Shown: positions 8,376 to 47,137 of the stretch, in pieces
Numbering within the stretch: the first letter of the stretch is position 1
Layout: every line of letters starts with the position of its first letter
Assembly: GCA_964016885.1 (NCBI GenBank)
Contig: OZ024743.1
Location: 328,414,001 to 328,478,000 of the forward strand
DNA from: Eledone cirrhosa
Taxonomy: Eukaryota
Length of the DNA stretch: 64,000 nt
Direction: 5' to 3'
The notes under the pieces: generated by a model
The model's database searches: none
What the model saw: the letters and a program-made list of their open reading frames with translations, nothing else
What the model was told of the DNA's origin: nothing
Translations under genes and position numbers: made by a program

Positions 8376-8477
8376 TATTTTGAAAATTTGGACTGTGAAC
8401 AACAATTATAATTGAGTGGCTGCTATTTGCAGTATAGCAATATAAGGTTGCACTTACCAATGAAACGATCGTAAATA
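8376..8477 (+). ncRNA. Type I hammerhead ribozyme, U3-A8 core variant, in PLE pLTR
   Basis: TATT-TTGAAAA-TTTGG...CCAAT-GAAA-CGATC-GTA-AATA; mirrored in the inverted pLTR and repeated near 36135-36235. Confidence 0.7.
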
Positions 8478-8732
8478 CCTGGATAAAATCCTTCTCTTAA
8501 TGTTTACCTGTGTTTTCTCTTTTATACTTTATACTCCAAGATTGAACGGAATTCTTACAAACTTGTAGAGTTACCCCTAACCGTACGTTGAAACCATCCA
8601 TGAAACTGGCTTTCTTAACCAAGAACTGGATCACAATAAGCAATTTGTTTGCTTCTCTAACTATATATATATATATATATATATATATATATATATATAT
8701 ACACACGGGTGTGTATGATTGTGTATAGAAGA

Positions 8733-9065
8733 TTATATTAATAAAAGGAATTCCAACTTTGTCTGATTTACTCGTTTTATTTACAATCCTTTAACATTTA
8801 TAATGGTATTAGAATGAAATAGTATGGTATGGTAGAATATTAAATGTTAAGTGTTAATTGAACAAGTTAAAAATTGCAAACTTGACTGTCACCACACAAT
8901 ATGAACCTGAAGATTGCGAAAGCACGAAAGTACTTGTTCAATTAACACTTAACATTTAATATTCTACCATACCATACTATTTCATTCTAATACCATTATA
9001 AATTTTAAAGGATTGTAAATAAAACGAGTAAATCAGACAAAGTTGGAATTCCTTTTATTAATATA
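8733..9065. mobile_element. Fold-back element (~135-bp arms) with central hammerhead
   Basis: 8733-8867 is the reverse complement of 8932-9065; ends in (TA)n. Confidence 0.85.
8902..8940 (+). ncRNA. Minimal type I hammerhead ribozyme
   Basis: TGAAC-CTGAAGA-TTGC GAAA GCAC-GAAA-GTA-CTT-GTTCA; palindromic AAGTACTT stem III. Confidence 0.8.
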
Positions 9066-9394
9066 TATATATATATATATAATTTGTTTTGCAAGATTCT
9101 TGATGTGAAAACATGTGTTGAAATAGATATTGATGTACTTTGTGATTAATTAATCAGATAATTAGTTTGTTAATCAGTTGTTTAAATCAATCAGTTAATT
9201 AATTAATTAGTCCATCAGAGTTCTTTCGTCACAAGCTGTGACCTTAACGATAGCTACGTACCCTATTCGTTTATACTTACTTTCTTAGATAATTTTGAAC
9301 GAATAAACGAGAGAAAATGTACTCAATACGTGATACCGTAGAGTTTATTTATTCCGGTCTATACTTCCGGACCATGTGGCGAATTGACAGAGTT

Positions 9395-9820
9395 GTTAGA
9401 GTAAGGGTAAAGACCCCCTTTGGTCACGAACAACCATGGGATTTATACCTAGAAAGTTCTCCTCCGAGGCACATGTCAGGGCAAGGTTGTTTGTGGAAGA
9501 CCAGCAGTCACCCATACATACCAGCCTCCCCCTCTCCATGTCACCGATGTTGTCCAAAGGAAAGGCAATGGCCGATACAGGTTTACACCAGTGACGTCGC
9601 AACTCATTATTACTGCTGAGTAAACGGGGGAAACGTGAAATAAAGTGTCTTGCTCAAGGACACAACACATCACCTGGTCCTAGATGTTAGAACATTAGAT
9701 AGGATTCTTTTCCGTATTCGTTTTAGCTCTCCGCACCCTGAGTTTAAATCTCCCCGAGGTTAATTTTGCGTTTCAATATTTCGAGGTCGATAAATAAAGT
9801 ACCAGTATTGTACTGGGGTA
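9395..9820. mobile_element. Degenerate SINE fragments
   Basis: AATAAAGTGTCTTGCTCAAGGACACAAC (also ~12225 and inverted ~12985); family 1 remnant at ~9740-9820. Confidence 0.6.
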
Positions 9821-43399: not shown

Positions 43400-43447
43400 T
43401 GTAAAAGTTCTTTCGTCACACATTCTGTGACCTCTTCAGTGACTGGG
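43400..43447 (-). ncRNA. Hammerhead-like motif in PLE pLTR
   Basis: Minus: CTGAAGA-GGTCACA GAATG TGTGAC-GAAA; stem I is poor. Confidence 0.55.
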
Positions 43448-44247
43448 GATTCTTTTCTTTGTTTTTGTGCCTCTCCTTTGTTCTGTCCTACGCCATCTTG
43501 TTTTTGTGAGTGTTGCGTGCTTAGTTTGCGCATGTGTTACATCCGGATGTCTGTGTGTGTTTATATTTGTTTATTTATTTGTTTATTTACATGTTACTGG
43601 TTGGTTGTTTGTTCTATGTGTGTGTGTTTTCATTTTGTCCTTAACTGTAAGTTGTGATGCTGCTATTCCATTCATGTTTTCTATTTAATTTTGGTTGGAG
43701 TTCATTTATGTTTATTGCCTCTGTAATTTGTCTAAACATTGCGTCTTATCTGTCTGTAGATTCTATTTTTATTTCTATGTTCTCTAATTTGCCCTTATGT
43801 TCTATTTTAGCATGTTGGTGGAGTATTGATGATTCTTTTTTATCTTGAAGTTCTCGCCAGTGTTCATTTAACCGTTCTCCTATACTACGAGCTGTCTCAC
43901 TTATGTACACTATATTCTTATCTTTACATTGTCCTTCAGTACATTTCTAGTTTTACAGTTAATATAGGGGCTTAGTTTACAGATTATGCATTTCTTATCT
44001 ATACAGGGAGGTCTTTGAAAAGGGTATGTATTGCTAATAAGTGTTTTTATGGAGGTACCTGGTCTTTCTACTATCTTAATATTAAGTTTATGTTTATCTA
44101 GGGCCCTTCTATATATATATATATATATTTATTTGGTTCCTTTACCGGTTTCGCAGTTCTTCTGCTTTTCATAAGTAGAGTTGAGATGGAGGGTCTGTAG
44201 TTTTTCACAGATGTGAGAAAAACCACAGACCCTCCATCTCAACTCTA

Positions 44248-44283
44248 CTTTTGAAAAGCAGAAGAACTGCGAAACCGGTAAAG
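44248..44283 (+). ncRNA. Minimal type I hammerhead, U3-A8 core variant, in fold-back element 44128-44296
   Basis: CTT-TTGAAAA-GCAG AAGAA CTGC-GAAA-CCG-GTA-AAG; second copy at 44904-44939; mutated inverted copy at ~44140-44175. Confidence 0.8.
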
Positions 44284-45579
44284 GAACCAAATAAATATAT
44301 ATATATATATATATATATATATATTTTAGTTCATACAAAAAAGGCTTTTTCAAAAAGAAACATAGTTATCTCATTTTTACTCAGCGGTTTTAACTCTCGT
44401 GAGCTTTTCAGAGGTGTAATATCCCGGGTTATATTTATATTTATGGTGGTGTTCTGTAGTTTTGATACGTGTCGTTATTTTCAGTCTCGCTCGTTTCACC
44501 CTATTTTACTTGTCCCAATAACTTTATTTAGTTATTGCTCGCACCAACCAGAGGTATATGATTTTTAAAGCGATGGAATACCAATGAAGGTTGGAAGATC
44601 ACTGATGAAGGACTAATTTTATTCATATGTAACCCCTGTGCAACCACGCAGCACTCCATTTTTCTTATATATATATATATATATATATATATATATATAT
44701 ATATATATATATATATATATATATAAATAATAACTAGAAATTGATTAACATATATATAAACATGAATAATCACAGGAGATAATTTTTTGTATATCTTATA
44801 TATATAAGATATATAAAAAAAGTATATATATGTGATATATATATTATATATATATATATATCACAGATGTGAGAAAAACCACAGACCCTCCATCTCAACT
44901 CTACTTTTGAAAAGCAGAAGAACTGTGAAACCGGTAAAGGAACCAAATAAATATATATACTTAAAAAAAAAAAAAGACTCCAGTTGCATTTTCGATTTCA
45001 TCTTTTTTTCTTTATACTTTCACTCGTGTAGGACACCTCGGTTATTTTTCATTTTGTAAAAAAACCTCACTTTCTAATATATATATATATATATATATAT
45101 ATATATATATATATATATATATATATATAACGAAGGAAGTGTGGTAAGGAACCAGATGGACCATAACGCACCAGAGTACTCAATACTTAGGGTAGTAGAG
45201 TGCGTAATAGGGAAATGTTTAACCCCGACGGCAGAGCTGAAGCCGTGAGAAACGGCTTGAGCTCTGCCGTCGGGGTTAAACATTTTCCCATATATATATA
45301 TATATATATATATATATATATATATATATATATATATATATATATATATATATATATATATATATATAGGAAAAGAGTCGGGACCCCGACGGCTGAGCTC
45401 CGGCCGTTTCGACAGCTAGTTCAGAACTATGTGTCGAAACGGCTGTAGCTCAGCCGTCGGGATCTGACTCTTTTTCTATTACCCACTCTACTACCCATAG
45501 TATCGAGTACTCTGGTGCGTTGTGGTCCATCTGGTTCCTTACCACAATTCCTTCGTTATATATATATATATAGGAACCA

Positions 45580-47137
45580 GTAAGACCCCGACAGCTGAGC
45601 TCAAGCCGTTTCGACGGCTAATTCTGGACTAAATGAAAATTTATCCTGGTATTTAAATAGCCGATCTTCTCAAGGGGTAATTCCATATATGGTCAAAGTG
45701 ATTGTCAAAAATCAGTAGTAATTCTGTGGTTGCAAATTAGTAGGGGAGATGGTGGCTAAACCTGCCAGTAGGAGAAAGAGGGGAGGGGTGGAGTAGACCC
45801 AATCAAGCGTTGGTAGTGCCAGCTACAGCTGGGCATGAGGTCAAAGAAGATACAGGGGAGGGGGAGGGGGAGGAAGTCGGAACGGTAGGTAGAACAATGG
45901 GGGGTAGAAATATATAGGAAAGAAAAAATACTGAGAGTGAAGAAAAGCAAATAAGTGTAAAGAAAAAAGTAAAGTAAATTAAATTCTACGACCTAGCTCT
46001 CAGGCTATTGTTAGGCTAGAATAAAATAAAGAAAGAAAGAAAGAAGTAAATAAATAAATAAATAAATAAATAACGAAATAAGTAAAAGAACTAGGTGGGA
46101 CGAAATAGGCAAGGACCCTTTTAAGAGGTATAAGTACGTAAATGATACGGTGACGGGTCAACAAAAGGGGCCAAAATACTAAAGAGACTACCACGAAATA
46201 AACAATAAAGGTTTCCATCCCGGGCCAGCAACGACCCAGTGCAGCAAAGTGAACTTGTACGAGATAATAATTCTGAGTCCCGAGAAAAAATTTTTTGTAG
46301 CTTGTTTTAGATCTTTTCGAGTTAGCATTAGTATATATTTTTCTCGGGACTCAGAATTATTATCTCGTACAAGTTCACTTTGCTGCACTGGGTCGTTGCT
46401 GGCCCGGGATGGAAACCTTTATTGTTTATTTCGTGGTAGTCTCTTTAGTATTTTGGCCCCTTTTGTTGACCCGTCACCGTATCATTTACGTACTTATACC
46501 TCTTAAAAGGGTCCTTGCCTATTTCGTCCCACCTAGTTCTTTTACTTATTTCGTTATTTATTTATTTATTTATTTATTTACTTCTTTCTTTCTTTCTTTA
46601 TTTTATTCTAGCCTAACAATAGCCTGAGACCTAGGTCGTAGAATTTAATTTACTTTACTTTTTTCTTTACACTTATTTGCTTTTCTTCACTCTCAGTATT
46701 TTTTCTTTCCTATATATTTCTACCCCCCATTGTTCTACCTACCGTTCCGACTTCCTCCCCCTCCCCCTCCCCTGTATCTTCTTTGACCCCATGCCCAGCT
46801 GTAGCTGGCACTACCAACGCTTGATTGGGTCTACTCCACCCCTCCCCTCTTTCTCCTACTGGCAGGTTTAGCCACCATCTCCCCTACTAATTTGCAACCA
46901 CAGAATTACTACTGATTTTTGACAATCACTTTGACCATATATGGAATTACCCCTTGAGAAAATCGGCTATTTAAATACCAGGATAAATTTTCATTTAGTC
47001 CAGAATTAGCCGTCGAAACGGCTTGAGCTCAGCTGTCGGGGTCTTACTGGTTCCTATTACCCACTCTACTACCTCAAGTATTGAGTACTTTGGTGCGTTA
47101 TGGTCCACCTGGTTCCTTACCACATTTCCTTCGTTAT
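45580..47137 (+). mobile_element. Fold-back pLTR-type element, ~710-bp inverted arms, ~48-bp spacer, (TA)n-flanked
   Basis: 45580-46289 is the reverse complement of 46338-47056; shorter copies ending TTCCTTCGTTATA at 45128-45290, 45366-45560, 48394-48552. Confidence 0.9.
46949..47042 (+). ncRNA. Type I hammerhead, U3-A8 core variant with long stem III
   Basis: ACCCC-TTGAGAA-..CGGCTA...TAGCCG..-GAAA-CGGCTTGAGCTCAGCT-GTC-GGGGT. Confidence 0.75.

What the first reader, a model, noticed from the sequence alone, without database searches (positions are those of the whole stretch)
8376..47042. Natural U3-A8 hammerhead ribozymes in four different element families
Seen: motifs at 8376, 31887(-), 44248/44904 and 46949 have stems I-III, GAAA and a GUA/GUC site, but the core reads TTGAAAA or TTGAGAA. 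Established: C3 and G8 form a Watson-Crick tertiary pair, so U3-A8 is the compensatory change. Inference: paired substitution across dissimilar families implies selection for activity, and CUGANGA-based searches would miss the class.
Basis: partly seen in the sequence, partly recalled or inferred. Interest (0 to 1): 0.8.

Follow-up and report, generated by a model that had tools for sequence, protein, structure and literature searches.

The report
Swapped-core hammerheads in Penelope retroelements
Four jumping-gene families in this animal genome carry hammerhead-shaped RNA motifs whose core C-G pair is replaced by U-A, a variant published in 2011 and 2014; they likely cut the elements' own RNA (untested), and one family also spread about 1,800 copies with that pair mismatched, apparently before restoring it.

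Summary
All stated motifs are real type I hammerhead folds with a U3-A8 core (9 in the window; 0.03 per shuffle). They lie in the terminal repeats of Penelope-like retroelements. Families A, B and D carry Hydra-clade motifs; C is an intact Neptune/Nematis-type element with 11,693 copies; a fifth family (40730) was missed. The variant is in print: natural U3-A8 (Perreault 2011) and about 1,300 copies in Schistosoma Penelope-like elements (Cervera 2014). This scan also noted it before, in at least five other genomes.

Across families positions 3 and 8 covary (57 C-G and 17 U-A against 4 C-A and 4 U-G). U-A families have C-G sisters, so the switch recurred (one-clade test p=1.4e-4). Selection on the pair is therefore likely.

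These are inherited subfamilies that fall between older and younger U3-A8 subfamilies, and the rest of the fold stayed conserved. Pairing is favoured but not required for spread. Cleavage was not tested and no RNA run was listed. Verdict: new members of a known kind, plus a natural mismatch series that can be tested.

The parts
8376..8477 (+). Family A type I hammerhead fold, U3-A8, predicted site after 8473
5199..5300 (-). Family A hammerhead in the inverted 5'-truncated copy
   Evidence: arms 5143-6085/7591-8533, 98%
6054..7539 (+). Family A reverse transcriptase-endonuclease frame, 5'-truncated and frameshifted (6054-7475, 7177-7539), Hydra-type motifs
36135..36235 (+). Third family A hammerhead copy, stem III palindrome damaged
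31889..32020 (-). Family B hammerhead fold, U3-A8, 103-nt stem II domain, predicted site after 31894
33685..33829 (-). Family B' hammerhead, C3-G8; sister family of B with a homologous long stem II
44248..44283 (+). Family C small hammerhead, U3-A8, dimer type; minor variant with 3-bp stem I
44904..44939 (+). Family C hammerhead, second copy
44140..44175 (-). Family C inverted copy with A3 (3-8 pair broken in this copy)
46949..47042 (+). Family D hammerhead, U3-A8, stable as a monomer, C17 at 47037; youngest subfamily
45585..45678 (-). Family D hammerhead in the inverted arm (45570-46289/46338-47057)
40725..40814 (+). Family F hammerhead, U3-A8 with U7, in a ~590-nt unit that also occurs in tandem; no linked reading frame found

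Best explanation
These are U3-A8 hammerhead motifs in the pseudo-LTRs of Penelope-like retroelements, and they likely act as weak self-cleaving ribozymes that cut tandem precursor RNA into unit-length element RNA. Shown: the fold, the place in the terminal repeat, the link to RT-GIY-YIG frames (A, B, C, D), and repeated paired C-G/U-A switches between sister families. Inferred: U3-A8 keeps the 3-8 tertiary pair that positions the 2'-OH of nucleotide 8; A, B and C cut mainly as dimers through palindromic stem III, while D and F can fold as monomers. Selection acts on the few master elements, not on dead copies, and is loose enough that family D's master lineage ran for a long period with C3.A8 and then returned to U3-A8.
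For: Window enrichment 9 vs 0.03. Genome counts with one pattern frame (match/reversed control): U3-A8 3572/533, C3-G8 2016/291, U3.G8 431/229, C3.A8 533/303 (N7 free only). Unbiased 800 kb: 57 CG, 17 UA, 4 CA, 4 UG of 100 hits; reversed control 0 CG, 2 UA of 11. B/B' group: 30 of 30 loci Watson-Crick (28 CG, 2 UA). A8 families are not one clade in the Hydra-type RT tree (AU p=1.4e-4). C follows an intact 775-aa RT + GIY-YIG frame in 3 of 3 frames fetched; a 47%-identical RT relative carries C3-G8. Stem III is self-complementary in 8 of 9 U3-A8 window copies. In D, 1 of 31 unselected core/stem I/stem III columns changes between 7 subfamilies, and that change adds a pair, against 13 of 44 in the stem II domain (hand count). 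Literature: U3-A8 is called active in vitro (PMC3088659 section 8); Penelope hammerheads cut weakly, as dimers (PMC4209133).
Against: No cleavage or expression data. Family D: 1,807 of 7,308 copies are C3.A8. In a type III hammerhead only G3-C8 rescued the pair; other single and double mutants were low (PMC9901934). Monomeric C costs 9-12 kcal/mol over its free fold. Naiad elements are reported to spread without canonical hammerheads (PMC8557442). Copy counts reflect amplification, not independent events.
Confidence: 0.68

Rival explanations
1. The motifs are real hammerhead descendants, but cleavage is dispensable. The fold is kept for another job, such as binding by the element's reverse transcriptase, RNA dimerisation or end definition. 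The 3-8 pair then drifts in an A+T-rich genome, with only weak structural selection.
For: The C3.A8 phase of family D made about 1,800 copies and lasted through roughly ten other fixed changes in 134 nt; low activity of Penelope hammerheads; low activity of U3-A8 in one construct; Craig et al. raise the idea that hammerheads merely parasitise these elements.
Against: G12-A14, A15.1, U16.1 and C17 do not change across D subfamilies. Apart from D, no amplified family with a mismatched pair was seen in 800 kb; the other CA/UG hits are single decayed copies or poor folds. D appears to return to U3.
Confidence: 0.2
2. U3-A8 arose once in the ancestor of the Hydra-type families A, B, D and E; the C3-G8 sisters are reversions. 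Its presence in three of the four window families is then mostly common descent, not convergence.
For: A, B, D and E have related RTs (35-50% identity). On the unrooted tree four gains and one gain with three reversions are equally parsimonious (my count).
Against: 26 of 26 published Hydra hammerhead rows have C3-G8 (File S2 of PMC8557442). Family C lies in another clade (23% over 149 aa to A), so at least one further origin is needed. Reversions are paired switches too, so selection is still implied.
Confidence: 0.3
3. The motifs are chance matches in A+T-rich repetitive DNA.
For: TTGAAAA is a common word (control 533 for the loose pattern). Rfam finds no hammerhead at C or D or among the 150 rows shown for the window.
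Against: 9 vs 0.03 expected; fixed position in terminal repeats; compensated stems; Rfam also misses the canonical motif at 8907.
Confidence: 0.01

Closest known systems
U3-A8 minimal hammerheads of Schistosoma mansoni Cercyon Penelope-like elements (Cervera and de la Pena 2014, PMC4209133)
   Same: Type I motif in pseudo-LTRs, U3-A8 core, thousands of dispersed copies, inverted pairs, short stem I, palindromic stem III region
   Different: Here in Hydra-type and Neptune/Nematis-type elements; A, B, D and F have 54-103-nt structured stem II domains; D has a 6-bp stem III; an amplified C3.A8 subfamily is not mentioned in the two parts read
Natural U3-A8 core variants (Perreault et al. 2011, PMC3088659)
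   Same: The same covariation, described as first seen in nature there
   Different: Described as several examples; no family-level history given in the section read
Hydra clade of Penelope-like elements (Craig et al. 2021, PMC8557442)
   Same: C-terminal endonuclease, RWK/RWR, DKT, CxCX5C linker, (TA)n targets, inverted 5'-truncated copies, hammerhead in the terminal repeat
   Different: All 26 listed Hydra hammerhead rows have CUGANGA cores and compact stem II; A, B, D and E here have U3-A8
Non-LTR retrozymes (bioRxiv 10.64898/2026.07.22.740005)
   Same: Families F (~590 nt) and G (~320 nt) are tandem-capable hammerhead units with no linked frame
   Different: U3-A8 core; circular RNA not tested; does not apply to A-D, which have their own frames

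Membership tests
Type I hammerhead ribozyme | Stems I, II and III around the core, ends in stem I | tested here: met
   the hammerhead fold is within 0.1 kcal/mol of the free fold for D, 1.1 for F, 3-5 for A and B, 9-12 for monomeric C
Type I hammerhead ribozyme | Core U4 G5 A6, A9, G12 A13 A14, A15.1-U16.1, H17 | tested here: met
   9 of 9 U3-A8 window motifs (these letters are part of the descriptor); unselected positions fixed across D subfamilies
Type I hammerhead ribozyme | Watson-Crick pair between positions 3 and 8 | tested here: met
   U3-A8 in all reported motifs; not met in window copy 44172 or in 1,807 family D copies elsewhere
Type I hammerhead ribozyme | Site-specific self-cleavage | not testable with these tools
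   needs bench assay
Type I hammerhead ribozyme | Tertiary contact between stems I and II | not tested
   no model built
Type I hammerhead ribozyme | Match to an Rfam hammerhead model | tested here: inconclusive
   no match for C or D, but none for the canonical control at 8907 either
Penelope-like element (EN+) | One frame with RT and C-terminal GIY-YIG | tested here: met
   C: RVT_1 E=1e-6 (28.7 bits, just under the 29.6 cut-off) and GIY-YIG E=3e-6; A, B and D by YRDD and endonuclease motifs read, with no relevant Pfam hit; F: no frame found
Penelope-like element (EN+) | Pseudo-LTR tandems, inverted 5'-truncated copies, hammerhead in the repeat | tested here: met
   in a D tandem the start codon lies about 190 nt after the site
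Hydra clade (A, B, D) | RWK, DKT, CxCX5C linker, no CCHH, (TA)n insertion | tested here: met
   definition; A has RWK, DKT and CxCX5C; D has RWR, DKT and CxCX5C; B has DKT and CxC (RWK not clear)
Hydra clade (A, B, D) | Placement with reference Hydra RTs in a tree | not tested
   no reference proteins were available to the tools; trees hold this genome's rows only
Neptune or Nematis clade (C) | GxKF, DKG, CX2-5CxxC linker before GIY-YIG | tested here: met
   which of the two clades was not tested (Neptune by recalled RT motifs only)

The most novel reading that the evidence does not exclude
Penelope-type hammerheads move among C3-G8, U3-A8 and a working C3.A8 state. Family D records a master lineage that went U3-A8 to C3.A8 and back, spreading about 1,800 copies and tightening stem III while mismatched. 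That would make it a natural single-mutant intermediate of the compensatory switch that still cleaves, and a fossil series for how a catalytic tertiary pair is exchanged.
Probability: 0.3. Interest if true: 0.65.

Novelty: new member of a known kind. Interest (0 to 1): 0.42.

Why it matters
The variant itself is known. Three points remain. (1) About a fifth to a quarter of this genome's hammerheads (17 of 74 paired cores in 800 kb) are invisible to CUGANGA descriptors, which Penelope surveys still use, including the search that reported no hammerheads in Naiads. (2) Sister families with C-G and U-A cores (B and B', A and A2) give matched natural pairs for measuring what the swap costs. (3) The C3.A8 subfamilies of D bear directly on an open question, whether Penelope elements need ribozyme cleavage: one assay series on natural D variants separates 'cleavage is dispensable' from 'the mismatch is tolerated in this scaffold'.

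Tried and rejected
Rfam: no hammerhead among 150 of 178 rows shown for the window, none at C, D or the canonical control; uninformative. RNA evidence: no RNA holder listed; three contig sets of unrecorded type laid on 31845-34150 showed no joint matching the suspected intron among the 15 of 30 joint rows shown and cannot show ends; no evidence either way. I first linked family C to the RT at 40860-43179; rejected, because that RT family is followed by its own C3-G8 motif about 200 nt after the frame, and C's own frame was found later. The DNA search for C gave nothing although a pattern finds 11,693 copies. Two D trees were not used for the order of events: one search was confounded by non-homologous flanks, and one search kept 32 of 99 rows with only one C3 row. 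The rooted RT DNA tree of D did not resolve the order. Eleven G3/U8 hits in the sample are one tandem array. No Naiad-like frame was found in the held loci (recalled motifs), so U3-A8 in Naiads was not tested; the Naiad sequences in the Craig supplement (parts 8-28 of 59) were not read and may bear on it. Two key papers were not held: Przybilski and Hammann 2007 and Lunse et al. on small Penelope hammerhead variants; the latter may already report such cores. Searches for 'U3A8', 'C3-G8 mismatch rescue' and 'C3-A8/C3A8' found nothing relevant in the open library only.
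Full report
OBSERVATION. The four motifs are present as described. A descriptor for type I hammerheads with positions 3, 7 and 8 left free gave 14 hits in the window: 9 U3-A8, 4 C3-G8 and 1 A3.A8. The reversed window gave no U3-A8 hit, and 30 block shuffles gave one in total. An earlier, differently tuned scan also found canonical motifs at 8907, 35123 and 51289. Forcing the hammerhead fold costs at most 0.1 kcal/mol for D, 1.1 for F, 3-5 for A and B and 9-12 for monomeric C. Stem III is self-complementary in 8 of 9, as expected of dimer-type motifs.

WHAT CARRIES THEM. The genome is 3.0 Gb in 1,796 contigs; I did not identify the organism. All four families are Penelope-like elements. 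A sits in 943-nt inverted arms around a truncated RT-endonuclease frame, and D in 720-nt arms. Longer copies elsewhere link A, B and D to related RTs with RWK/RWR, DKT and a CxCX5C linker, the Hydra-clade motifs given by Craig et al.. C follows an intact 775-aa frame with RVT_1 and GIY-YIG matches in 3 of 3 frames fetched. It has GxKF, DKG and a CX4CxxC linker, so it is Neptune- or Nematis-type, and it is only 23% identical to A's RT over 149 residues. Copy numbers: C 11,693, D 7,308, B plus its sister B' 11,151; A and B each gave about 1,530 candidates, of which 40 were scored. F and G are ~590-nt and ~320-nt units without a linked frame.

COVARIATION BETWEEN FAMILIES. With one pattern frame, matches and reversed-pattern controls were 3572/533 for U3-A8, 2016/291 for C3-G8, 431/229 for U3.G8 and 533/303 for C3.A8 (position 7 was a purine except). 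In 80 evenly spaced 10-kb stretches of the four largest contigs, 100 hits split into 57 CG, 17 UA, 4 CA, 4 UG, 11 from one tandem array and 7 others; the reversed sequence gave 11 hits with 0 CG and 2 UA. In C, 99 of the first 100 listed copies are U3-A8. In the B/B' group 92 of the first 100 have G8 and 8 have A8; in the 30 loci fetched, all 28 with G8 have C3 and both with A8 have U3. In a tree of 22 Hydra-type RT pieces (8 of 30 rows left out because their core state was unknown or their link doubtful), B is sister to C3-G8 family B' and A to C3-G8 family A2 (one row), both starred. Holding the A8 rows together is rejected (AU p=1.4e-4). D's nearest row also appears to carry C3-G8, but on a long branch. 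A 47%-identical relative of C's RT has C3-G8. The paired switch therefore happened at least twice among Hydra-type families, probably three or four times, and once more for C. The direction is not resolved.

THE EXCEPTION. In family D, 1,807 of 7,308 copies have C3.A8. Only 82 have anything but A at position 8, and 10 of those are C3-G8 (hand count). The C3 copies are inherited, not decayed: both arms of inverted pairs carry C3, including pairs 3-4 kb apart. A tree of endonuclease DNA from 23 copies, independent of the ribozyme, nests young U3-A8 copies inside a C3.A8 grade, with old U3-A8 copies outside; two changes are forced by starred branches. That tree has no outgroup. The order rests on the protein tree (old U3-A8 branching first, support 92/80 and 94/87), on within-group divergence (old U3 0.072, C3 0.051 and 0.044, later U3 0.023-0.027) and on a ladder of diagnostic sites among 55 copies. 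About ten other positions in 134 nt changed while C3 was in place. Over the same history only 1 of 31 unselected core, stem I and stem III columns changed, turning a U.U mismatch in stem III into a pair, against 13 of 44 columns in the stem II domain (hand count; Fisher p=0.002 on the near-identical table). An ancestral C3.A8 with two gains of U3 is not excluded. Nearly all C3 copies have G7 (95 of the first 100), which may be a founder effect or an alternative C3-G7 register.

MECHANISM. Established for the class: Penelope terminal repeats carry type I hammerheads proposed to cut tandem transcripts to unit length, with low activity in vitro and mostly as dimers (PMC4209133; PMC6765202). In a D tandem the start codon lies about 190 nt after the predicted site, which fits the cut defining the 5' end of the next unit. 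Inferred here: U3-A8 preserves the tertiary pair and some cleavage; selection on master elements favours a pair but tolerates C3.A8 in D's unusually stable scaffold. Against: in one type III construct only G3-C8 rescued this pair (PMC9901934), so U3-A8 may be markedly weaker; the D mismatch also fits a role for the fold that needs no cleavage. No RNA data could be had.

WHAT IS KNOWN. Perreault et al. 2011 reported natural U3-A8 covariation and cited earlier in vitro activity (PMC3088659; passage and section 8). Craig et al. 2021 list 26 Hydra hammerhead rows, all C3-G8, and searched Naiad cores with 'cuganga' (PMC8557442; passages, outline, section 11, supplement parts 1-2 of 59). Also seen: passages of PMC9901934, PMC6765202 and PMC7151607 and part 1 of 5 of the 2026 retrozyme preprint. 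Przybilski and Hammann 2007 (recalled) and Lunse et al. (title in a reference list) were not held. I found no mention of natural C3.A8 cores (open library only). Earlier notes of this scan describe U3-A8 Penelope hammerheads in at least five other genomes and none in this one.

VERDICT. These are new members of a known kind. What adds interest is the repeated switch between sister families in one genome and the amplified C3.A8 phase in family D, which supplies ready-made natural variants for asking whether these elements need cleavage. Interest 0.42.

Noticed in passing
window 31945-31989 (-) and the matching part of 33690-33824 (-): Inside stem II of B and B' a 42-55-nt block starts GTAAGT or GTATGT, holds a branch-point-like CTGAT/TTGAT and ends ACATAG, conserved across the group. 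It may be a short intron or a splice signal inside the ribozyme; base pairing also explains much of the conservation.
   Followed up: partly
window 4976(+), 8907(+), 35123(-), 36779/37236(+), 51289(+): Canonical C3-G8 hammerheads of several other families; 36420-37497 is a perfect 457-nt tandem with one per unit, like a retrozyme. With the variants the window holds at least 17 motifs in 64 kb.
   Followed up: no
window 40860-43179 (-): Broken Penelope-like RT of another type with a long insertion in the RT; its family carries a C3-G8 hammerhead with A15.1-G15.2 and a short stem III.
   Followed up: partly
L164 1921-4696; G000:C1 many places: Abundant Hydra-type family E with a compact U3-A8 motif and a weak stem I; not in the window.
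   Followed up: partly
L145, L146, L161, L231: Family G, a ~320-nt tandem unit with a U3-A8 (U7) hammerhead and a 5-6-bp stem III; no frame linked.
   Followed up: partly
L373, L374: Family C has many intact 775-aa frames with no early ATG (first ATG frame 613 aa), and seems recently active (10,487 candidates).
   Followed up: partly
window 14545-19924 and 20501-25759 (+): Two tandem copies of a two-frame non-LTR element with zinc-knuckle ORF1 and intact 1,153-aa endonuclease-RT ORF2 (Tx1/L1-like by recalled motifs).
   Followed up: no
window 27591-30774: Satellite of 47 nt, about 68 copies, 95% identical.
   Followed up: no
window 53131-60292 (-): Fragments of R4/Dong-like RT frames with a restriction-like endonuclease end (label recalled), one end duplicated in tandem.
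   Followed up: no
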